A DNA stretch of 64,000 bases from Candidatus Shapirobacteria bacterium CG_4_10_14_0_8_um_filter_39_15. GTDB lineage: Bacteria > Patescibacteriota > Microgenomatia > UM-FILTER-39-15. Below the pieces are notes generated by a model. That model saw only the letters and a list, made by a program, of their open reading frames with translations. It was not told the origin of the DNA and searched no databases. The position numbers were made by a program, and so were the translations under genes. The DNA lies in contig PFLE01000011.1 of NCBI GenBank assembly GCA_002784465.1, positions 3,966 to 67,965 on the forward strand. The letters run 5' to 3'. Position 1 is the stretch's first letter. Each line of letters starts with the position of its first letter. Below, piece after piece: positions 1,839 through 48,776 of the stretch.

Positions 1839-2459
1839 ATGCCGGTAACATTATACAAAAGACAAAAGCAAATCTACGATTTTATTTCCCAATACATCCA
1901 AAAATTCGGCTGCTCGCCAACCCTTCAGCAAATAGCCGACGCGATTAATGTTCATTCTCTGGCCACCATTCACGAACATTTACAGGCAATGGTCAAAAAG
2001 GGCGTCATCCGTAAATACGAAGGAACAATTCGGGGAATTGAATTGATTGACAAAAAAATGGGTGAACTGACCAAAGGGATTGAAGTGCCGATTTTGGGCT
2101 ATATTGCCGCCGGCGCACCAATAGAACCATTCACTGATCCCAATGCCACTTTGCAAGTTTCAGCCTCAATGCTTTCAGGTGGAAAATCCTCCTTTGTTTT
2201 ACAAGTTAAAGGCGAGTCAATGATTGAAGACGGCATTCTTCCGGATGATTATGTCGTGGTTGAACAGCAGGAAGTCGCCAATAACGGCGATATTGTGGTG
2301 GCGCTATTAGATAACGGCTTTGCCACTTTAAAACGATTTTATAAAGAAGCCAGCCGGATCCGTTTGGAACCAGCAAATGCTAAAATGTCTCCTATCTTTG
2401 CCACAAGAGTAAGAATTCAGGGAAAAGTGGTGGGAGTAATCAGAAAATATCAGGTTTAA
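1839..2459 (+). CDS. lexA: LexA repressor (wHTH plus S24 autopeptidase)
   Basis: 206 aa. The N-terminal wHTH is followed by the cleavage-site motif GYIAAGAPIEP. The Ser of GESM and the Lys of TLKRFY form the S24 dyad. Confidence 0.85.
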   Translation: MPVTLYKRQKQIYDFISQYIQKFGCSPTLQQIADAINVHSLATIHEHLQAMVKKGVIRKYEGTIRGIELIDKKMGELTKGIEVPILGYIAAGAPIEPFTDPNATLQVSASMLSGGKSSFVLQVKGESMIEDGILPDDYVVVEQQEVANNGDIVVALLDNGFATLKRFYKEASRIRLEPANAKMSPIFATRVRIQGKVVGVIRKYQV

Positions 2460-3245: not shown

Positions 3246-3914
3246 ATGCCTTATCGATTTACTCCATTAGTGACAGGACAGTTTTATCACATCTTTAATC
3301 GTGGGATTGCTCGGCAACCAGTTTTTCTAGATAAATATGATTACCAAAGAATGATTGATACTCTTTGGTTTTATCATTTTGCTGAATCTTCTGTCAAATT
3401 TTCTCGCTATTTAACTCTTCCTTATAAACAAAAGACTTCCTTAATTAATACACTTGCACTTTCTAAAGACATCGTCTCTATTAACACTCATGCATTAATG
3501 CCCAATCATTTTCATCTTTTATTAAGTCAAGAAAAAGATGGAGGAATATCTAAGTTTATTAAGAAGGTAATTGATAGCTATACTCGTTTTTTCAATACCA
3601 AATACGAGAGAAATGGAGCCATCTTTCAAGGTCAGTTCAAAGCGAAATTAATCGAATCAGACGAACAACTTCTTCATCTTTCCAGATATATTCATCTAAA
3701 TCCCTATACCTCTCATATTGTGAATAGGTTAGAAGATATTATTAATTATCCCTGGTCTTCAATGAGTGAGTATATGAATATACGAGAGGGGATATCTAAT
3801 CCAAAATATATATTAAGTAATTTTGGGTCAAAAGAGAAATATTTAGAGTTCGTTAACGATCAGAAGAATTATCAGCGAATCTTGGGTGATATTAAGCATC
3901 TTACTTTCGAATAA
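3246..3914 (+). CDS. REP-associated tyrosine transposase-like protein (RAYT / IS200-like Y1 HuH transposase family), copy 1
   Basis: HuH motif MPNHFHLLL. The C-terminal pattern ...IFQGQFKAKLIESDEQLLHLSRYIHLNPY...INYPWSS matches E. coli RayT (IWQPRFWEHAI...YIYINPV...DWPFSS). It is a paralogue of the ORF at 57555..58214. Confidence 0.75.
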   Translation: MPYRFTPLVTGQFYHIFNRGIARQPVFLDKYDYQRMIDTLWFYHFAESSVKFSRYLTLPYKQKTSLINTLALSKDIVSINTHALMPNHFHLLLSQEKDGGISKFIKKVIDSYTRFFNTKYERNGAIFQGQFKAKLIESDEQLLHLSRYIHLNPYTSHIVNRLEDIINYPWSSMSEYMNIREGISNPKYILSNFGSKEKYLEFVNDQKNYQRILGDIKHLTFE

Positions 3915-13448: not shown

Positions 13449-13685
13449 TCACAAAATTATCCTCTTTATTTCCAATTTACTCTTTCCAAAATTCAAAATC
13501 AAGCCTATCTTTATGTTAGTTGCCTTTAAATAGGAAATCATTTGTCTAACATGTTCATTGTTAATTTCTTTCGTTGATTTTAGTTCAAGAATAACCTTAA
13601 TACTAACTTTAGGTTGAGATTTATGAGGTATTTGATTGACAGATAACTCTGTTAACTCTGACTCCGGATATTTATTCTCGTTCAT
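13449..13685 (-). CDS. GxxExxY-family (PD-(D/E)xK-like) protein, apparently N-terminally truncated
   Basis: C-terminus ...VILELKSTKE...ISYLKATNIKIGLILNFGKSKLEIKRI matches the GxxExxY family tail. The N-terminal GxxExxY motif is absent. Confidence 0.45.
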   Translation of the reverse strand: MNENKYPESELTELSVNQIPHKSQPKVSIKVILELKSTKEINNEHVRQMISYLKATNIKIGLILNFGKSKLEIKRIIL

Positions 13686-13688
13686 ATT

Positions 13689-14294
13689 TTAGAGTTTCGG
13701 TGTAATTTCGTTCTGTGTTTCGGTGTTCTTTTTTCTGTGATTCCGTGTCACGTGTTTCTGTTTAGTCGTTTTCTGTGTTTCAGTGTTACTAGTTTCAGTG
13801 TAACCGGTTACAGTGCGACGATGGTGACAAATAGCAACTGCCAGCGCGTCGCAAACATCATCAAAATAGGTTTTTTTATGATTAGGGGCGCGGATAGAAA
13901 GTAATTTTCTAACCGTCGCTTTCATTAAGATTTTATCCGCTTTTCCCGATCCACCAACGACAAGTTTAATACTCATTGGTGCGTAATCAAAAACCGGAAT
14001 TTTCTGTTTGGCGGCGGCTAACCTGATAACACCCAGGGATTCGGATACGGCCATCGCGGTTTTAACATTGGTGGCAAAAAATAATCGCTCAATTGCCAAA
14101 ACATCCGGTTTGTGTTTTTTCAGAATGGCCAGCATCTCTTCGTGGATCGTGACTAAGCGGTTTTCGCGCAGGGAATCTTTGTCGGTTTTTATCCATCCCC
14201 AATCAATCAGTTCGTATTTTTCCGTTTTACCGTCGGTTTTAAGCACTCCAAATCCGGTAGTAGCCGTTCCCGGATCAATTCCCAAAATAATCAT
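13689..14294 (-). CDS. ruvC: crossover junction endodeoxyribonuclease RuvC, with a low-complexity C-terminal tail
   Basis: MIILGIDPGTATTGFGVLK...; the ORF-track start at 14309 lies a little upstream. The last ~40 aa (TETSNTETQKTT...) are encoded by GTTTC(N)GTGT-type tandem repeats at 13689-13810. Confidence 0.8.
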   Translation of the reverse strand: MIILGIDPGTATTGFGVLKTDGKTEKYELIDWGWIKTDKDSLRENRLVTIHEEMLAILKKHKPDVLAIERLFFATNVKTAMAVSESLGVIRLAAAKQKIPVFDYAPMSIKLVVGGSGKADKILMKATVRKLLSIRAPNHKKTYFDDVCDALAVAICHHRRTVTGYTETSNTETQKTTKQKHVTRNHRKKNTETQNEITPKL

Positions 14295-14357
14295 AAATAA
14301 TGATAGCACATAATATATCTGGTAATACGTTCGGCTTTTTAGTATAATTCAACACGA

Positions 14358-14409
14358 GGCCCCATCGTCTAGTGGTCCAGGATGCGAGGTTTCCTGCCCG
14401 CAGTGCCAA
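14358..14409 (+). other. tRNA 5'-half-like fragment (acceptor GGCCCCA, Glu-like D-arm, aberrant 8-nt anticodon loop GTTTCCTG)
   Basis: Has no T-arm. Its acceptor strand is perfectly complementary to TGGGGTC at 14531-14537. Confidence 0.4.
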
Positions 14410-14483
14410 GCCGCCATCGTCTAGCGGCCTAGGACATCTGGTTTTCAGCCAGAGAATCGGGAGTTCGAATCTCCCTGGCGGCA
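14410..14483 (+). tRNA. tRNA-Glu (anticodon TTC)
   Basis: Full cloverleaf: acceptor GCCGCCA/TGGCGGC, anticodon stem TCTGG/CCAGA with loop TTTTCAG, and T-arm GGGAG-TTCGAAT-CTCCC. Confidence 0.8.
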
Positions 14484-14513
14484 CAGCTTTGGCAGGCGGG
14501 TCAGCCTTGCAAC

Positions 14514-14540
14514 CACGGTCCGAATCCGTGTGGGGTCACC
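14514..14540 (+). other. tRNA 3'-half-like fragment (T-arm CACGG-TCCGAAT-CCGTG plus acceptor TGGGGTC-A-CC)
   Basis: Its 3' end GGGGTCACC is identical to the tRNA-Lys 3' end at 14944-14952. It pairs with the 5' fragment at 14358. Confidence 0.35.
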
Positions 14541-14568
14541 TCGCTTGGCTCGGTGCAAGCACTTTATT

Positions 14569-14847
14569 ATGTATTGGTTTGTCTATATAGTTGAGTGTAG
14601 TGATAGTTCTCTTTATACCGGCATTAGTAACGATGTAAATAAAAGAGTCTGGAAACATAATAATGGGTTAGGTGCTAAATCCATTAAGGGAAAATTACCA
14701 GTAAAACTCGTGTACATAGAAAGGCATAATAATATGCACGAGGCGGCAATTAGAGAAAGAGAAATTAAGGGGTGGAATAGATTTAAGAAACTAAGATTAA
14801 TTAACGAAATTCCTTATAAAGGGCTTAGTCCTGGGAATAAACGATGA
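14569..14847 (+). CDS. GIY-YIG nuclease-superfamily protein (YhbQ/UPF0213-like)
   Basis: WFVYIVECSDSSLYTGISNDVNKRVWKHNNGLGAKSIKGK...EAAIREREIKGW aligns to E. coli YhbQ. The ATG at 14569 is preferred to the ORF-track start at 14530. Confidence 0.75.
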   Translation: MYWFVYIVECSDSSLYTGISNDVNKRVWKHNNGLGAKSIKGKLPVKLVYIERHNNMHEAAIREREIKGWNRFKKLRLINEIPYKGLSPGNKR

Positions 14848-14878
14848 AGGGCTTGCCCTAAGGAAGGAAATGACGAAG

Positions 14879-14953
14879 GGCCCCGTAGCTCAGCGGTAGA
14901 GCAGTTGCCTTTTAAGCAATTGGTCACAGGTTCGAGTCCTGTCGGGGTCACCA
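14879..14953 (+). tRNA. tRNA-Lys (anticodon TTT), CCA encoded
   Basis: Acceptor GGCCCCG/CGGGGTC, anticodon stem GTTGC/GCAAT with loop CTTTTAA, T-arm CACAGG-TTCGAGT-CCTGT. Confidence 0.85.
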
Positions 14954-14956
14954 TAT

Positions 14957-14995
14957 CTACGTTCACACCTTTAAGGTGAACTACGTTCACACCTT
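14957..14995. repeat. REP-B element copy a (CTACGTTCACACCTTTAAGGTGAACTACGTTCACACC)
   Basis: Direct repeat of (C/T)TACGTTCACACC around a palindromic core CACCTTTAAGGTG. It lies immediately 3' of tRNA-Lys. Confidence 0.75.
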
Positions 14996-15008
14996 GGGAA
15001 TCGAATCT

Positions 15009-15686
15009 TTAATTCTTATATACGTTATTGAAGCAATTCTGGGCTTTCTGAAAACCAGCATCCTGGGCTTCTTTTTCAGTACAAAACCAACTTTCTCCTA
15101 AATTTTTTTCTACAAAAACCGCAGTATATTCACTGCATCCTGGAAAAAAATAATGTTTAATCGTCGTATTCTTAGTGATATTTCCTTTAATCAGACATTT
15201 AGGGTTATCCGGCTTTTCGGCAAAGCAGGGCGGTTCATGAATACCTCGATTATTTGCAACCGCTTCGTCATCGGCTTTTTTTAAAATTTTCCTCTTGGAA
15301 TTTGGAGTACCATCATATCTGACGAGTCCTTCTTTTAGTAAAGCCTCGTTAACCAAAACATTATTAACATAAACCAAGGCGAGTGTTCGGTTGAAAACGT
15401 CTTCGGTATTCGCCACAATCGTCACATTTTTTCCCAAAATCATTTTTTCCAAATATTGTTTGGCTTCTATTCCCCCGCATAAATTTATTTCCGGGGCCTC
15501 AATATTACTTAATCTGATTCTTTGCCAGCCGCCGATAATAATTGTATCCCCGTCAACAACATTGGTAACTTTATTCGATTCAGCCAGCTTTTGATTTTGA
15601 GAATATTGAAAGATATTTAATCCCAAAGACCCCACCAACCCCAAAGTCCCCAAAACCCCCAAAATTCCTAATTTATTTCTCTTCAT
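15009..15686 (-). CDS. secreted thermonuclease (SNase-like) with a Cys-rich C-terminal domain
   Basis: N-terminal hydrophobic segment, then VVDGDTIIIGGWQRIRLSNIEAPE, which is the staphylococcal-nuclease motif. Confidence 0.7.
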   Translation of the reverse strand: MKRNKLGILGVLGTLGLVGSLGLNIFQYSQNQKLAESNKVTNVVDGDTIIIGGWQRIRLSNIEAPEINLCGGIEAKQYLEKMILGKNVTIVANTEDVFNRTLALVYVNNVLVNEALLKEGLVRYDGTPNSKRKILKKADDEAVANNRGIHEPPCFAEKPDNPKCLIKGNITKNTTIKHYFFPGCSEYTAVFVEKNLGESWFCTEKEAQDAGFQKAQNCFNNVYKN

Positions 15687-16425: not shown

Positions 16426-17270
16426 TAGGGTAATTGTCAATATTTAGCACCAAATTTGTTAATTAATAATTTTAATAATCTTTCTTTTTGTTTTGTTAAA
16501 TCGTCTTTTTTATGGTTATCTCTCCAAACATATTCTCCTAAGAAAAGTGGTAAGTAAATTCTTCTGACTCCACCCTTACTTGCCAGTTTTCTTTTGAGAA
16601 AACCCCAGAAGCCTTCCAAGCCATTGATGTGATTTTTGCCCCTGACATATTCTTTTTCCCGATGTTCAACTGTTCTATGAACATATCCCATTGCTGCCAA
16701 TCCGGTGTAACTTCTGTAGGTATCAGAACAGATGCGAGATCCGGTTCTAACCTTCTTCGTTATGATCGGTATTAGGTCTTTCGCTTCCGTATCAGAAACA
16801 ACTTTGGCAAACACTTTGCCATTTCGGCAAAGGATACCAAAGACAGGCTGTTTGGTGGTTCCAAAACCACTTTTACTTTCCTTTTGTTTTCTTTTGACCT
16901 CCAAGGTGAGTTTCATCTACTTCCACTGTTCCTGAAAACATTTTAGGGATGTCTTTTAACATGACCATTCTTAACAACCTTAATGCCTTGTTTATGGTTC
17001 CCATGCTTTTCCCTGTCTTTTCCTTTATGGTTGGACTATTTACCTCCAGTAAAAACAAATCAATAATCTTGATTCAGTCTTTTCTGGAAAGATTAAAACC
17101 AGAAATAAATTTAGGTTTTGAATCCTTTCTGCAAACCCGACAACGATATTCTCCACCGGTTAATTTCCAGTACTTTTTTCCTCCACAATTCTCACATTTG
17201 TATCTCATGTGCAAATTATATCGAAAAATCGAACCGTTTTCTTATTTTAAGGTGCTAGATTTTAGATATT
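16426..17270 (-). mobile_element. degenerate IS1595-family insertion sequence (~845 bp) with ~26-bp imperfect terminal inverted repeats
   Basis: IR-L is TAGGGTAATTGTCAATATTTAGCACC (16426-16451). IR-R is GGTGCTAGATTTTAGATATTACCCTA (17243-17268). The transposase is internal and fragmented. Confidence 0.6.
16437..17207 (-). pseudogene. IS1595-family (ISXO2-like DDE) transposase split into three frames
   Basis: Zn-ribbon piece MRYKCENCGGKKYWKLTGGEYRCRVC (17207-17070, then stop). Next piece ...GTVEVDETHLGGQKKTKGK (17058..16873). C-terminal DDE piece ...HINGLEGFWGFLKRKL...LFLGEYVWRDNHK (16916..16437). Confidence 0.7.
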
Positions 17271-23628: not shown

Positions 23629-23739
23629 GATTTTTGTTTAAATAAATTAATCTTTTCTCAACTTCCGGATATTTTATTTAAGTAATTTAACCCCTTGACA
23701 ACTTTCGTATTTCTTTCGTATAGTATATCTACAATTAAA

Positions 23740-25173
23740 ATGAAAATCAAGACCCTTACACCTAAACAAAAGAAAGTACTCGATTTTATAAACAAATTCA
23801 TCAAAAAGAACGGTTATTCTCCATCCTTGGAAGAAATGGCTAGTTACCTAAAATTGAATTCGGTCTCTACGGTTCATCAATTTATAGAAATCCTAAAAAA
23901 CAAGGGTTATATTAACAAGGAAGAAAATAAACCCCGATCAATTACCTCTGGATTTACCGAAATCCCCCTTTGTGGTTATATTGCAGCAGGCGAACCAATA
24001 GAGGCAATTTCTAATCCTCAACCGTTCAAGATTCCACAGGCTATCGTTAGTAAGACTGGCTTTTATTACGCTTTAAAAGTTAGAGGAAATAGTATGGTTG
24101 AAGACTGTATATATGATGGAGATACAATAATAATTAAACATCAAGATACCGCTGAAAATGGACAAAAAGTAGTGGCTCTAATTGACAATCTTGAAGTAAC
24201 TCTCAAAAAGATTTATAAAGAGAATGGGAAAATTAGATTACAACCGGCAAATCGAAACATGAATCCTCTCTTTGTCGATCCCTCAAGAGTAATTATTCAA
24301 GGAATAGTAATAGATATTCTTAAAAATAAGTCGATCGTTTCGGAGACGCCACTTATAGATCATACCGCACGACATATAAACACTAACCCCAAAGATCTAG
24401 GTGAATTATTGAATCAGGTAATAGAAGGTGACTGTCTTGAGGTGATGAACAGTATACCAAATAAATCCATCGATATGATATTATGTGATCTCCCTTATGG
24501 AAATACTCAAAACAACTGGGATAGTGTTATTCCGTTAGATAAACTTTGGTCGCACTATGAACGAGTTATTAAAAATAACGGCGTAATCGCTTTAACCTCT
24601 CAAGGATTATTTACTGCCAAATTAATTTTGAGTAATCCAAAACTGTTTAAATATAAAATCGTTTGGATTAAATCTAAATCTACCAACTTCTTAAATGCCA
24701 AAAAACAACCATTAAGACGACATGAAGATATTTGTATTTTCTACAAAAACCAACCGTCTTATAATCCTCAAATGTCACCCGGGGAACCTTATAATAAAGG
24801 TTTCAGAAAAAATCAACTTACGGGGAGTTATGGTGATTTTAATTCAGTCGAGGTTAAAAGTGACGGCTTACGTTATCCTACAGATGTCGTTTACTACAAA
24901 ACCGCAGAAAGCGAAGGAAAAGTATTTCACCCGACCCAAAAACCAGTAGAACTGGGAAGGTATTTGATTAAAACGTTCACAAAAACAGGCGATATTGTTT
25001 TAGACAATACTTGTGGCAGTGGTAGTTTCCTTGTTGCAGCAATCTTGGAAAAAAGACGGTTTATTGGGATCGAAAAAAATCAAGAAACATTCTTACATAA
25101 AAAACAGAGGGTTAACTATATCGAAATATGCAAAGAAAGAATAGAAAAAGCTAGAAAAGAACTAAAGAAATAA
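23740..25173 (+). CDS. fusion protein: LexA-like wHTH/S24 autopeptidase (N-terminal) plus beta-class DNA N6A/N4C methyltransferase (C-terminal)
   Basis: One uninterrupted ORF (track 23695..25173; ATG at 23740 preferred). Residues 1-200 are a paralogue of lexA: CGYIAAGEPIEA cleavage motif, GNSM Ser, TLKKIY Lys. Residues ~215-477 carry DLPYG (motif IV), then HPTQKPVEL, then NTCGSGSFLVAA (motif I), which is the PF01555-type order. Confidence 0.8.
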   Translation: MKIKTLTPKQKKVLDFINKFIKKNGYSPSLEEMASYLKLNSVSTVHQFIEILKNKGYINKEENKPRSITSGFTEIPLCGYIAAGEPIEAISNPQPFKIPQAIVSKTGFYYALKVRGNSMVEDCIYDGDTIIIKHQDTAENGQKVVALIDNLEVTLKKIYKENGKIRLQPANRNMNPLFVDPSRVIIQGIVIDILKNKSIVSETPLIDHTARHINTNPKDLGELLNQVIEGDCLEVMNSIPNKSIDMILCDLPYGNTQNNWDSVIPLDKLWSHYERVIKNNGVIALTSQGLFTAKLILSNPKLFKYKIVWIKSKSTNFLNAKKQPLRRHEDICIFYKNQPSYNPQMSPGEPYNKGFRKNQLTGSYGDFNSVEVKSDGLRYPTDVVYYKTAESEGKVFHPTQKPVELGRYLIKTFTKTGDIVLDNTCGSGSFLVAAILEKRRFIGIEKNQETFLHKKQRVNYIEICKERIEKARKELKK

Positions 25174-48626: not shown

Positions 48627-48701
48627 GCGGTAGTAGTTCAGTGGTAGAATGTCTCCTTCCCAAGGAGAAGGTCGCCGGTTCGAGTCCGGTCTACCGCTCC
48701 A
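48627..48701 (+). tRNA. tRNA-Gly (anticodon CCC), CCA encoded
   Basis: Acceptor GCGGTAG/CTACCGC, anticodon stem TCTCC/GGAGA with loop TTCCCAA. Confidence 0.85.
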
Positions 48702-48773
48702 GCCAATGTAGCTCAGTGGTAGAGCAGCTGTTTCGTAAACAGCAGGTCGTGGGTTCAATTCCCACCGTTGGCT
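48702..48773 (+). tRNA. tRNA-Thr (anticodon CGT)
   Basis: Acceptor GCCAATG/CGTTGGC, anticodon stem GCTGT/ACAGC with loop TTCGTAA, T-arm GTGGG-TTCAATT-CCCAC. Confidence 0.85.
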
Positions 48774-48776
48774 CAG

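What the first reader, a model, noticed from the sequence alone, without database searches (positions are those of the whole stretch)
14358..14955. A tRNA apparently split into 5' and 3' halves around an intact tRNA-Glu, next to a GIY-YIG nuclease gene and tRNA-Lys
Positions 14358-14409 look like the acceptor, D and anticodon arms of a Glu-type tRNA (acceptor GGCCCCA), but there is no T-arm. An intact tRNA-Glu(TTC) follows immediately.

Thirty nt later comes a T-arm plus acceptor 3' strand (CACGG-TCCGAAT-CCGTG-TGGGGTC-A-CC). Its acceptor strand pairs perfectly, 7/7 with one G-U, with the orphan 5' half.

The 3' fragment also shares GGGGTCACC with the end of tRNA-Lys 400 bp downstream. The interval between them encodes a YhbQ-like GIY-YIG protein.

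Possible readings are a tRNA disrupted by insertion of another tRNA, a tRNA-targeted integration that duplicated att-like 3' ends (GIY-YIG cargo), or a non-canonical split or intron-containing tRNA. The orphan anticodon loop is 8 nt (GTTTCCTG), which argues against a functional mature tRNA.
Basis: seen in the sequence. Interest (0 to 1): 0.5.

Follow-up and report, generated by a model that had tools for sequence, protein, structure and literature searches.

The report
A tRNA gene nested inside another
A complete glutamate tRNA gene sits inside the anticodon loop of a second glutamate tRNA gene; this arrangement recurs, up to three layers deep, in many ultra-small (CPR) bacteria, and I found no description of it or of a way bacteria could process it.

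Summary
Positions 14358-14392 and 14501-14538 are the two parts of one tRNA-Glu(UUC) gene. It is split between anticodon-loop nucleotides 34 and 35 by a 108-nt insert (14393-14500): an intact tRNA-Glu(UUC) with 17 nt of partly complementary sequence on each side.

Removing the insert in silico gives a cloverleaf that ARAGORN calls tRNA-Glu(ttc). Two independent assemblies carry the identical sequence. Relatives have an uninterrupted tRNA-Glu(UUC) with the same ends and trailer at the same place, upstream of the GIY-YIG gene and tRNA-Lys. The outer gene is therefore the native one and the insert is derived.

Pattern scans found about 25 distinct Glu-in-Glu nests, almost all in CPR bacteria, one of them three layers deep. 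Outer stems covary. About two thirds of outers have nonetheless lost something a decoding tRNA needs, and the window's own has C55.

Best reading (0.55): a DNA-level insertion. The inner tRNA does the work. The outer halves are a co-transcribed, tRNA-shaped leader and trailer, kept foldable but not spliced.

Main rival (0.22): a true, spliced, non-group-I bacterial tRNA intron.

The att-duplication reading is rejected.

The parts
14343..14348 (+). Perfect -10 hexamer TATAAT, 9 nt upstream of the outer tRNA's first base
   Evidence: Read directly. The strict sigma-70 scan found no full promoter because there is no good -35. A TATAAT-like hexamer lies at the same distance upstream of the OUTER 5' end in L025, L027, L029 and L009. 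It is never found before the inner tRNA.
14358..14392 (+). Outer tRNA-Glu(UUC), 5' part (nt 1-34): acceptor 14358-14364, D arm 14367-14383, anticodon-stem 5' strand CGAGG 14385-14389, loop nt 32-34 TTT 14390-14392
   Evidence: Position 34 is T here and C in relatives L034, L051 and L035, which carry a near-identical insert (identical flanks in L034). That places the junction at 34|35.
14393..14409 (+). 5' flank of the insert (CCTGCCCGCAGTGCCAA), acting as leader of the inner tRNA; pairs with 14484-14500
   Evidence: MFE fold. Identical in L034; 2/17 and 4/17 differences in L051 and L026.
14410..14483 (+). Inner, intact tRNA-Glu(UUC), acceptor GCCGCCA/TGGCGGC, discriminator A; CCA not encoded
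   Evidence: ARAGORN; Rfam RF00005 59.9 bits, E = 4e-12; 74/74 identical to the inner tRNA of L026.
14484..14500 (+). 3' flank of the insert (CAGCTTTGGCAGGCGGG), acting as trailer of the inner tRNA; pairs with 14393-14409
14501..14540 (+). Outer tRNA-Glu(UUC), 3' part: loop nt 35-38 TCAG 14501-14504, anticodon-stem 3' strand CCTTG 14505-14509, variable loop CAAC, T arm 14514-14530 (T loop TCCGAAT, C55), acceptor 3' strand 14531-14537, discriminator A 14538, encoded CC 14539-14540
   Evidence: Of the 17 outers aligned, only the window's has C55. The T stem differs from L034 by a compensatory C50-G64 to A50-T64 change.
14543..14570 (+). Terminator-like hairpin GCTTGGCTCGGTGCAAGC followed by a T-rich tail, directly after the outer 3' end; it overlaps the conserved sequence found upstream of GIY-YIG genes in relatives
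   Evidence: Homologous trailer TCGCTT(C/G)GCTCGGTG(T/C)AA(A/G)CAC after the uninterrupted tRNA-Glu of L069 and L062.
14569..14847 (+). 92-aa GIY-YIG nuclease gene (catalytic domain only), between the nest and tRNA-Lys
   Evidence: Pfam PF01541, E = 2.2e-17. Every homologue whose context was fetched lies between tRNA genes. A GIY-YIG gene abuts four other tRNA-Glu loci: the nests L035, L039 and L051, and the tandem pseudo-copy locus L013.
14879..14953 (+). tRNA-Lys(UUU), CCA encoded; syntenic neighbour, not part of the nest

Best explanation
What it is. The two 'halves' are the lineage's native tRNA-Glu(UUC) gene. It was cut at the DNA level between anticodon-loop nucleotides 34 and 35 by a 108-bp insert. 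The insert is a second, complete tRNA-Glu(UUC) gene of a different sequence type (acceptor GCCGCCA), with 17 nt of its own leader and 17 nt of its own trailer. Leader and trailer pair with each other.

How it works. Architecture and origin are shown; the processing steps are inferred.
- The 181-nt nest is one transcription unit: -10 box at 14343, hairpin plus T tail at 14543.
- In the transcript the outer anticodon stem continues into the leader/trailer stem, which carries the inner tRNA at its tip.
- RNase P and RNase Z (plus CCA addition) release the inner tRNA. It supplies the cell's tRNA-Glu(UUC).
- The outer halves stay base-paired as a nicked, tRNA-shaped by-product. They are not rejoined and do not decode.

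Why the outer persists. Selection keeps the outer foldable on itself, so that its Glu-like halves do not mispair with the inner tRNA and so that the transcript's ends are processed cleanly. Selection no longer protects the nucleotides needed for decoding, hence C55 here.

How it arose. The nest came from break repair or gene conversion in a tRNA cluster. A resident free-standing GIY-YIG nuclease gene may keep such clusters in flux.
For: Architecture and origin (confidence about 0.9):
- The insert is precise. All 7 loop nucleotides are kept, nothing is duplicated, and the in-silico deletion is called tRNA-Glu(ttc).
- An uninterrupted orthologue sits at the syntenic site in L062 and L069/L070.
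- L072 and L073 are identical independent assemblies.
- The -10 box and the terminator-like hairpin bracket the whole nest, not the inner gene.
- Leader/trailer motifs (TGCCAA before, GCTT(T)GGC after) also flank stand-alone tRNA-Glu genes of relatives.

Outer not decoding (confidence about 0.6):
- Of about 30 distinct outers, roughly one third are flawless.
- Some have no anticodon loop at all, with the stem running straight into the flank stem, yet 17/17 other pairs intact (L039, L028, L036).
- Some have 2 extra loop nucleotides, giving cta/tta anticodons (L010, L021-B, L047).
- One has C36T (L026), one a 1-nt stem deletion (L055), and the window has C55.
- Some have extra GC-hairpins in the T arm (L006, L010, L056, L007, L036).
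- Some have lost or degraded the 3' half (L023, L027, L029, L059, L060). In L030 the 3' half is deleted relative to L029, which is otherwise near-identical over the stretches compared.
- In the triple nest L021 the outermost layer is the most decayed.
- The outer wobble base equals the inner one in 17 of 19 nests. The clear exception (L009, outer CUC, inner UUC) is the harmless direction. This is expected if the inner must replace the outer.
- Summed over four pairwise comparisons, outers changed 30 times and inners 8 times. W vs L026: 19/73 vs 0/74. L034 vs L035: 9/73 vs 1/74.
- No Rfam ribozyme or intron family matches at E <= 10.
- No bulge-helix-bulge motif is present (by inspection).
- No RtcB, EndA or RNA-ligase domain occurs among the 55 window ORFs scanned against Pfam.

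Structural constraint on the outer:
- 99.7% of 357 stem cells are paired, and 14 of 21 pairs show changes on both sides.
- W vs L026 has five double changes; four keep the pair.

Nuclease link.
Against: - Some outers are as conserved as working tRNAs. L025 vs L052 shows 0/74 differences, while 200 nt upstream differ by 21% and 1257 nt downstream by 14.7%. L034 vs L051 shows 2/73 for the outer against 5/74 for the inner.
- The insertion keeps every anticodon-loop nucleotide.
- Nine of 20 outers encode CC or CCA after the discriminator.
- Compensatory changes maintain even the acceptor stem, whose strands lie 170 nt apart.
- The flanks of the insert are identical between the UUC nest (window) and a CUC nest (L034), although both tRNAs differ. 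That hints at sequence-specific recognition of the flanks.

All of this is also what a spliced, functional (if redundant) tRNA would show.

Further limits:
- Gene conversion from the inner copy occurs (L027, L017). It could explain both the matching wobble bases and part of the conservation.
- There are no expression data.
- The GIY-YIG protein has only a catalytic domain and no demonstrated target.
- The mechanism of insertion is not established.
Confidence: 0.55

Rival explanations
1. True intron. The 108-nt insert is removed from the transcript at 34|35 and the outer exons are ligated into a second working tRNA-Glu(UUC). The pathway would not be group I self-splicing. It could use an unknown endonuclease that recognises the GC-rich helix closing the two junctions (C-Y-N-G-C-C / G-G-C-N-R-G), plus an RNA ligase. 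The inner tRNA would be an intron-encoded passenger.
For: - The insertion is precise, and TTY|TCAN is retained in at least 12 lineages.
- Spliced products of 12 nests are called tRNA-Glu at default thresholds.
- Outers are conserved: L025/L052 0/74 with flanks 15-21% diverged; L034/L051 2/73.
- CC(A) is encoded after 9 of 20 outers.
- Insert termini are conserved across lineages whose tRNAs differ. The window type has CCTGCCCGC...GGCAGGCGGG. The second type has CCCGCCTGCC...GGCGGGCAGG.
- The W to L026 changes (C2T, G-3A) keep a 6-bp helix that abuts both junctions.
- Similar GC-hairpins sit at TTC| in T loops (L010, L056).
Against: - No bacterial machinery for this is known.
- No BHB motif, and no Rfam intron or ribozyme hit.
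- About two thirds of outers could not yield a decoding tRNA even if spliced.
- The wobble base of outer and inner matches (17/19), which splicing would not require.
- T-arm hairpins were seen only in outers or orphan halves, never in an inner tRNA.
- The window's own outer has C55.
- The outermost layer of the triple nest is degraded.
Confidence: 0.22
2. Functional two-piece tRNA-like RNA. After the inner tRNA is excised, the two outer pieces stay paired and have a use of their own that needs the acceptor/T-arm body but not an anticodon. Examples would be a decoy, a substrate for an acceptor-end enzyme, or a processing platform. This would be analogous to two-piece tmRNA.
For: - Outers with no anticodon loop at all keep 17/17 pairs, covary with each other (L028, L036, L039), and one encodes CCA (L039).
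- Stems are maintained by compensatory change while decoding positions drift.
Against: - Many lineages lose or degrade the 3' half without replacement (L023, L029/L030, L060).
- No candidate partner or function has been identified.
- The constraint is equally explained by the need to avoid misfolding with the inner tRNA.
Confidence: 0.1
3. Integration scar. A mobile element carrying the GIY-YIG gene integrated into a tRNA and duplicated its 3' end. The 3' fragment at 14514-14540 and the end of tRNA-Lys would be att-like repeats.
For: A 24-nt stretch is 75% identical between 14517-14540 and 14929-14952, including GGGGTCACC.
Against: - The similarity is between T arm and acceptor of two different tRNAs (Glu-type and Lys).
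- The 3' fragment pairs 7/7 with the 5' half upstream, not with tRNA-Lys's partner.
- The order tRNA-Glu (ending TGGGGTCACC), GIY-YIG, tRNA-Lys is conserved in relatives without any nest.
- No integrase is present.
- Nests occur without a neighbouring GIY-YIG gene (L025, L034).
Confidence: 0.02
4. Chance resemblance or assembly artefact.
For: None beyond the general frequency of tRNA-like fragments. Several pattern hits elsewhere were indeed assembly junk containing N runs (L012, L016, L018, L046, L061).
Against: - The sequence is identical in three independent assemblies.
- The same 181-nt architecture occurs in diverged relatives, with covariation.
- Fold z-score is -4.29.
Confidence: 0.01

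Closest known systems
Archaeal intron-containing and split tRNA genes (bulge-helix-bulge introns; Nanoarchaeum equitans split tRNAs, including split tRNA-Glu)
   Same: A tRNA body is interrupted in the anticodon loop. GC-rich complementary sequences next to the break hold the pieces together. Both halves keep a perfect cloverleaf.
   Different: - The organism is bacterial: RuvC is 100% identical to Candidatus Shapirobacteria.
- No BHB motif at the junctions.
- The junction is at 34|35.
- The halves are co-transcribed around another tRNA, not encoded at separate loci.
- No splicing endonuclease is known in the group.
- Many outers are decayed.
Group I introns in bacterial tRNA anticodon loops, including those reported in Patescibacteria tRNA-Asn/Asp at 35/36 (PMC13011429)
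   Same: The same phylum, the same kind of site (anticodon loop), precise interruption of an otherwise normal tRNA gene, and invisibility to standard tRNA finders.
   Different: - The insert is 108 nt, of which 74 are a tRNA, so there is no room for a group I core.
- No Rfam group I hit.
- Relatives have C rather than U before the 5' junction.
- That paper does not mention tRNA-Glu or nesting.
Free-standing GIY-YIG homing endonucleases in tRNA gene clusters (phage T4 SegB, PMC2330249), and 'collaborative homing' of endonuclease-less introns (the latter recalled from my own knowledge)
   Same: A small GIY-YIG gene sits between tRNA genes. Neighbouring tRNA genes show duplications, fragments and insertions, as expected from repeated break repair. 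An insertion that splits a target site would confer immunity.
   Different: - The protein here is 92 aa, a catalytic domain only, with no DNA-binding domain.
- No cleavage site is known.
- The gene lies outside the nest.
- Many nests have no GIY-YIG gene within the fetched flanks.
Nested mobile elements (twintrons; transposons inserted into copies of themselves)
   Same: Layers of the same unit lie inside each other (L021: three tRNA-Glu layers with near-identical flanks), with the innermost intact and the outermost most decayed.
   Different: The repeated unit is a tRNA gene with short paired flanks. It is not an intron or a transposon with a known mobility enzyme.
Intervening sequences of bacterial rRNA removed without religation, and two-piece tmRNA from permuted ssrA genes (own knowledge)
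   Same: An internal segment is excised from a structured RNA, and the remaining pieces stay together by base pairing.
   Different: There the fragmented RNA is the functional product. Here the excised segment (the inner tRNA) is the evident product, and a function for the remaining pieces is unproven.

Membership tests
BHB-type (archaeal/eukaryal) tRNA intron | Bulge-helix-bulge motif (two 3-nt bulges separated by a 4-bp helix) carrying both splice sites | tested here: not met
   Inspection of the junctions and of the MFE folds. There is an internal loop of 3 x 4 nt next to a 6-9 bp GC helix, or shifted registers with a 4-nt linker. No paired 3-nt bulges appear in the window or in either main type of relative.
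BHB-type (archaeal/eukaryal) tRNA intron | Splicing endonuclease (EndA) and RtcB-type ligase encoded by the organism | tested here: inconclusive
   None found among the 55 window ORFs scanned against Pfam. Only 64 kb of the genome is available.
Group I intron in a bacterial tRNA | Conserved catalytic core (P3-P9), length of roughly 200 nt or more | tested here: not met
   No Rfam group I match at E <= 10 in 13900-15300. The insert is 108 nt, 74 of them a canonical tRNA.
Group I intron in a bacterial tRNA | U before the 5' splice site and G as the last intron base | tested here: not met
   The window has U34 and a terminal G. Relatives with a near-identical insert have C34 (L034, L051, L035), and some types end in A (L056, L059).
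Split tRNA (Nanoarchaeum type) | Halves encoded at separate loci with their own promoters, joined in trans through complementary GC-rich extensions | tested here: not met
   Complementary extensions are present. However, both halves lie in one 181-nt unit with a single upstream -10 box and a single downstream hairpin.
Functional (decoding) tRNA-Glu, for the outer gene | Continuous 7-nt anticodon loop, canonical T loop (T54-U55-C56), all four stems paired | tested here: not met
   Stems are 21/21 paired and the loop nucleotides are all present. However, the loop is interrupted by 108 nt, and the T loop reads TCCGAAT, with C55. This is unique among the 17 outers aligned and is present in three independent assemblies. 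Maturation by splicing cannot be tested here.
Functional tRNA-Glu, for the inner gene | Canonical cloverleaf, Glu-type D arm, UUC anticodon, scores above curated thresholds | tested here: met
   ARAGORN; Rfam 59.9 bits against a gathering score of 29; 74/74 identical in L026 although the surrounding outer differs at 19/73.
Integrative element in a tRNA gene (att duplication) | Direct repeat of the tRNA 3' part at the far end of an element that encodes an integrase | tested here: not met
   No integrase. The 'repeat' is Glu-versus-Lys acceptor similarity. The same gene order occurs without a nest in L062 and L069.
Free-standing GIY-YIG homing endonuclease cassette (SegB-like) | GIY-YIG catalytic domain | tested here: met
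   PF01541, E = 2.2e-17, residues 2-74.
Free-standing GIY-YIG homing endonuclease cassette (SegB-like) | Gene located between the genes it helps to spread (tRNA cluster); variable presence among relatives | tested here: met
   All 14 fetched contexts of homologues (8 distinct) lie between tRNA genes (Glu, Lys, Arg, Ser, Gln). The gene abuts a tRNA-Glu locus in the window, the nests L035, L039 and L051, and the pseudo-copy locus L013. It is absent near other nests.
Free-standing GIY-YIG homing endonuclease cassette (SegB-like) | Separate DNA-binding domain and site-specific cleavage of the endonuclease-free allele | tested here: not met
   The protein is 92 aa and consists of the catalytic domain only. 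Cleavage cannot be tested with these tools.
REP/REPIN elements mobilised by a RAYT transposase | Many copies of a GC-rich palindrome in the genome plus a RAYT gene | tested here: inconclusive
   A RAYT-like ORF exists at 3246-3914 (Pfam Y1_Tnp, E = 5e-8; NCBIfam REP_Tyr_transpos 48.5 bits, below the cut-off of 80; HUH and Tyr motifs present). Only two hairpins of the CCYGCC/CCCGC kind occur in 64 kb, and 15 small ones in 506 kb of loci.

The most novel reading that the evidence does not exclude
CPR bacteria may have a pathway, unrelated to group I self-splicing, that matures interrupted tRNA genes. The GC-rich helix closing the 34|35 junction, and the similar hairpins at TTC| in T loops, would be recognised and cut. 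The outer exons would then be ligated, or would work as a two-piece tRNA. One transcript would thus yield two tRNA-Glu molecules. This would be the first protein-dependent or otherwise non-group-I tRNA splicing in Bacteria, and a bacterial counterpart of archaeal split and intron-containing tRNAs.
Probability: 0.2. Interest if true: 0.95.

Novelty: new variant of a known kind. Interest (0 to 1): 0.7.

Why it matters
Disrupted tRNA genes (intron-containing, split, permuted) are textbook features of archaea and eukaryotes. In bacteria the only accepted tRNA introns are self-splicing ones. Here a bacterial tRNA gene is interrupted by another complete tRNA gene. The arrangement recurs across CPR lineages, is stacked up to three deep, and has outer stems that keep covarying.

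If the outers are dead, this is a new way for a tRNA gene to be replaced in place. The insert brings its own substitute, so it can sit in an essential single-copy gene of a minimal genome. The relic is then reshaped into an inert, self-folding leader and trailer.

If the outers are matured, bacteria have an unknown tRNA splicing or split-tRNA system.

Either way there are practical consequences:
- Standard tRNA annotation misses the outer genes.
- tRNA-Glu clusters with small GIY-YIG nucleases emerge as hot spots of rearrangement in CPR genomes.
- The question can be tested directly with small-RNA data.

Tried and rejected
- Synteny through the neighbouring RuvC gene. RuvC relatives keep the genes on RuvC's far side but have no tRNAs on the near side, so this route gave no comparison.
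- ARAGORN intron mode. With -i0 it reports only the inner tRNA. With -i10,300 it does call an intron-containing tRNA at exactly 14358-14540. The same mode also fuses neighbouring tandem tRNAs into false intron-tRNAs, and its anticodon assignments are arbitrary. I therefore did not use it as evidence on its own.
- Rfam at E <= 10 over 13900-15300. Only the two tRNAs and noise; no intron, ribozyme or tRNA-like family.
- BHB motif, sought by hand in three pairing registers for both main types. Not found.
- The idea that the CCTG at the insert's 5' end is a relic of an anticodon-stem strand. Rejected, because the same CCTGCCCCG...CGGGG hairpin sits in the T arm of other 3' halves (L007, L036).
- att-duplication reading. 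Rejected.
- REP/RAYT mobilisation. A RAYT-like gene exists, but no repeat family is visible in the window.
- Viral contigs. One hit, an N-containing tandem artefact.
- Pfam on the 55 window ORFs scanned. No RtcB, EndA or RNA ligase.
- Literature. Full-text searches for nested, split or interrupted tRNAs in CPR found nothing describing this. The Patescibacteria tRNA-intron paper does not mention tRNA-Glu.
Full report
**Organism and setting.** The RuvC-like ORF next to the feature (13689-14294, minus strand) is 100% identical to a protein of Candidatus Shapirobacteria bacterium CG08_land_8. That is a CPR/Patescibacteria (Microgenomates) bacterium. The window has 39% G+C and ordinary bacterial genes: DnaE, GatA/GatB, enolase, IleRS-like and others.

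ARAGORN finds an intact tRNA-Glu(UUC) at 14410-14484 and tRNA-Lys(UUU) at 14879-14953. Rfam agrees, at 59.9 and 74.4 bits. Upstream of the tRNA-Glu lies a Glu-type acceptor strand plus D arm (14358-14383). Thirty nt downstream lie a T arm and an acceptor 3' strand (14514-14537) that pair 7/7 with it.

The 5' anticodon-stem strand CGAGG (14385-14389) pairs with CCTTG at 14505-14509, not with the nearby CCCGC. The loop is not 8 nt. It is TTT (14390-14392) plus TCAG (14501-14504), together TTTTCAG, the same loop as in the inner tRNA. Between them lie exactly 108 nt (14393-14500):
- 17 nt, CCTGCCCGCAGTGCCAA;
- the 74-nt inner tRNA;
- 17 nt, CAGCTTTGGCAGGCGGG.

The two 17-mers pair with each other. 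In the predicted fold the outer anticodon stem therefore continues as a long stem that carries the inner cloverleaf at its tip. The outer acceptor stem closes the whole structure (-87 kcal/mol; z = -4.29; 0/200 shuffles fold as well). Deleting the 108 nt gives a 73-nt sequence that ARAGORN calls tRNA-Glu(ttc) at default settings. Two independent assemblies (L072 from JGI, L073 from ENA) carry the identical sequence.

**Where the junction is.** Relatives L034, L051 and L035 have near-identical insert flanks (identical in L034). Their outer 5' part ends GGTTC instead of GGTTT, and their 3' part starts TCAT. The only variable base at the junction is thus position 34, the wobble base (UUC versus CUC), and TCA is U35-C36-A37. 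The junction is 34|35.

**One transcription unit.** A perfect TATAAT lies 9 nt upstream of the outer 5' end. A hairpin with a T-rich tail starts 3 nt after the outer CC. Similar -10 boxes precede the outer, never the inner, tRNA in L025, L027, L029 and L009. The strict promoter scan found no -35 match, so transcription from this site is an inference.

**It is a family.** I scanned 185,579 species-representative genomes for two Glu-type D arms only 25-55 nt apart, too close for two tandem complete genes. This gave 16 loci. Six are true nests:
- Yanofskybacteria;
- Minisyncoccales;
- Levyibacteriota;
- Saccharibacteria;
- Gottesmanbacteria;
- one MAG labelled Elusimicrobia.

The same scan of JGI metagenomes gave 39 loci:
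- about 20 nests with both halves;
- 9 partly decayed nests;
- one partial tandem duplication;
- 9 unrelated repeats or N-containing artefacts.

L021 is a triple nest, A(B(C)B)A, with near-identical flanks around each layer. The outermost layer is degraded. The pattern only finds Glu-in-Glu nests, so other combinations would have been missed.

Seventeen in-silico joined outers were aligned (A1). In them, 99.7% of 357 stem cells are paired. Fourteen of 21 pairs show changes on both sides, and no shuffle out of 500 reaches this. Caveat: my parser chose 3' halves partly by complementarity, and the lineages are related to one another.

**Origin.** Homologues of the neighbouring GIY-YIG protein (Pfam PF01541) were traced to their contigs. 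In L062 and L069/L070 the gene order matches the window: tRNA-Glu(UUC), conserved trailer (TCGCTT.GCTCGGTG.AA.CAC), GIY-YIG, tRNA-Lys(UUU). There the tRNA-Glu is uninterrupted and has the outer-type ends (GGCCCCA...TGGGGTCACC). L064-L066 and L071 also have an intact GGCCCCA-type tRNA-Glu(UUC). So the outer gene is the clade's native tRNA-Glu(UUC), and the insert is derived. Motifs of the insert's flanks (TGCCAA before, GCTT(T)GGC after) also occur around stand-alone tRNA-Glu genes in these relatives. That suggests the insert is a tRNA-Glu gene taken with its own paired leader and trailer.

**Is the outer still a tRNA? Evidence for.**
- Many outers are flawless, and 12 joined products are called tRNA-Glu.
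- Nine of 20 encode CC or CCA after the discriminator, whereas inners never do.
- L025 and L052 differ by 21% in the 200 nt upstream and by 14.7% over 1257 nt downstream, but by 0/74 in the outer, 2/74 in the inner and 1/32 in the flanks.
- L034 vs L051: outer 2/73, inner 5/74.
- W vs L026 has five double changes in stems, four of which keep the pair, including A7-T66 to G7-C66.

**Is the outer still a tRNA? Evidence against.** About two thirds of the distinct outers lack something a decoder needs:
- no anticodon loop at all, with the stem running into the flank stem, though all other stems are perfect (L039, L028, L036);
- two surplus loop nucleotides, giving cta/tta anticodons (L010, L021-B, L047);
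- C36T plus a T-stem mismatch (L026);
- a 1-nt stem deletion (L055);
- GC-hairpins inserted in the T arm (L006, L010, L056, L007, L036);
- 3' halves partly overwritten by the inner copy (L027);
- 3' halves lost or degraded (L023, L029, L059, L060) or deleted as a polymorphism (L030 versus L029);
- in the window itself, C55 in place of the near-universal U55 (own knowledge), the only such case among the 17 aligned.

Other points against:
- Summed over four comparisons, outers changed 30 times and inners 8 times. The window's own lineage is the extreme: W vs L026, outer 19/73, flanks 7/34, inner 0/74.
- The outer wobble base equals the inner one in 17 of 19 nests. The clear exception (L009: outer CUC, inner UUC) is the direction in which loss of the outer is harmless (own knowledge: a UUC anticodon can also read GAG). 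This is expected if the inner must replace the outer.
- Gene conversion between the copies is visible in L027 and L017. It could also contribute to the matching wobble bases.
- Inner and outer similarities are discordant. L034 is closest to L035 by inner but to L051 by outer. This hints at exchange of inserts, though the numbers are small.

**Most likely mechanism.** Shown:
- the architecture;
- the single -10 box and single downstream hairpin bracketing the nest;
- the derived nature of the insert;
- structural constraint on the outer combined with frequent loss of decoding features.

Inferred:
- the nest is transcribed as one RNA;
- RNase P and RNase Z release the inner tRNA, and CCA is added afterwards because it is not encoded;
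- the outer halves remain as a nicked, self-paired, tRNA-shaped by-product;
- selection keeps the outer folding on itself, because its halves closely resemble the inner tRNA and would otherwise misfold with it;
- with time the leftover anticodon loop is zipped into a continuous helix, hairpins accumulate, and pieces are lost.

The insertion itself probably reflects break repair or gene conversion in tRNA clusters. Every GIY-YIG homologue examined lies between tRNA genes. Around these genes I saw truncated 5' copies of tRNA-Glu and tRNA-Lys (L062, L069, L071). In L057 there is a dead tRNA-Gln copy, with its anticodon loop replaced by a CCCGCC-TTCG-GGCGGG hairpin and two hairpins in its T loop. 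It is followed by a GIY-YIG gene and then a live tRNA-Gln. This resembles T4 SegB, a GIY-YIG homing endonuclease in a tRNA cluster (PMC2330249). The protein here is a bare 92-aa catalytic domain, and its role is a hypothesis.

**Rivals.** A genuine, spliced, non-group-I intron remains possible (0.22).
- The insert termini are strikingly conserved and come in two mirror-image types: CCTGCCCGC...GGCAGGCGGG and CCCGCCTGCC...GGCGGGCAGG.
- A 6-bp helix abutting both junctions is preserved between W and L026.
- Similar hairpins sit at TTC| in T loops.
- Against it: no BHB motif, no ribozyme family, no candidate enzyme in the window, and the decay pattern does not fit.

A functional two-piece tRNA-like RNA (0.10) would explain the loop-less but otherwise perfect outers. 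The att-duplication idea and chance or artefact are rejected.

**Known or new.** Full-text searches found no description of tRNA-in-tRNA nesting or of interrupted tRNA-Glu genes in CPR. [quoted passage not shown] I class the finding as a new variant of a known kind: a disrupted tRNA gene, or insertion carrying its own replacement. There is a 0.2 chance that it marks a categorically new bacterial tRNA maturation route.

**Limits.**
- There are no RNA data.
- Only 64 kb of the genome is available.
- The scans were restricted to Glu-type D arms.
- Comparisons rest on few and related sequences.
- Several parses of decayed loci were made by eye.

Noticed in passing
window 15048-15066 (minus strand), inside the 3' end of the SNase-like ORF 15009-15686(-): The minus strand reads CCAGGATGCTGGTTTTCAG. 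This is a near copy of the uninterrupted tRNA-Glu segment from the D-stem 3' strand through the anticodon loop, and it spans the 34|35 site without an insert (I4/I8, 57). It could be chance, or a relic of a tRNA-Glu fragment in reverse orientation.
   Followed up: partly
window 14553-14563 and about 14848-14858, flanking the GIY-YIG ORF: The ORF is bracketed by an inverted repeat, GGTGCAAGCAC ... GGGCTTGCCC. In relatives the same two places read GGTGTAAACAC ... GGGTTTACCC. The two arms therefore covary across about 300 nt. This could be a cassette boundary or an RNA processing stem around the ORF.
   Followed up: partly
L057 7122-7549: A dead tRNA-Gln copy has its anticodon loop replaced by a CCCGCC-TTCG-GGCGGG hairpin and two GC hairpins in its T loop. 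It is followed by a GIY-YIG gene (possibly with an internal stop) and then a live tRNA-Gln(CUG).
   Followed up: partly
L062 about 1250-1360; L069 about 1320-1390; L071 about 1840-1950: Short 5' fragments of a tRNA lie 50-100 nt upstream of the complete gene, next to GIY-YIG genes. The fragments are 14 nt of tRNA-Glu (GGCCCCATCGTCTA) and 20 nt of tRNA-Lys. In L062 the promoter-proximal segment is tandemly duplicated.
   Followed up: no
L013 5499-5584(-), L011 4209-4294(+), L060, L022: One or two upstream tRNA-Glu-like copies have the anticodon loop shrunk to 3-5 nt (for example TCAGC-CTTC-GCTGA) and a truncated T arm, directly before the real tRNA-Glu. These are tandem 'neutralised' copies rather than nests.
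   Followed up: no
window 3246-3914 (+): A 222-aa ORF with an IS200-like Y1 transposase domain has REP-associated tyrosine transposase as its best NCBIfam match. The score is below the cut-off, but the HUH motif (HFH) and the catalytic Tyr region are present. No matching repeat family was seen in the window.
   Followed up: partly
window 13449-13685 (-), 15009-15686 (-), 16437-16916 (-): Three genes lie within 2.5 kb of the nest: a C-terminal fragment of a PD-(D/E)XK_3 nuclease, a staphylococcal-nuclease homologue, and the C-terminal part of an IS1595-type transposase. The neighbourhood is rich in nuclease and mobile-element remnants, and synteny with RuvC relatives breaks exactly here.
   Followed up: no
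window 14957-14995: The direct repeat CTACGTTCACACCTT occurs twice, 24 nt apart, just after tRNA-Lys, around a short palindrome (D3).
   Followed up: no
window 48627-48774: tRNA-Gly(CCC) and tRNA-Thr(CGU) abut with no spacer: 48701 is the last base of one and 48702 the first base of the next.
   Followed up: no
window 23695-25173 (+) and 1839-2459 (+): There are two LexA-like proteins. One is fused to an N6/N4 DNA methylase domain.
   Followed up: no
L035 about 340-430: A 74-nt extra segment is inserted in the 3' flank of the insert, with duplication of the GGGTGGG end. The nest is otherwise intact.
   Followed up: no
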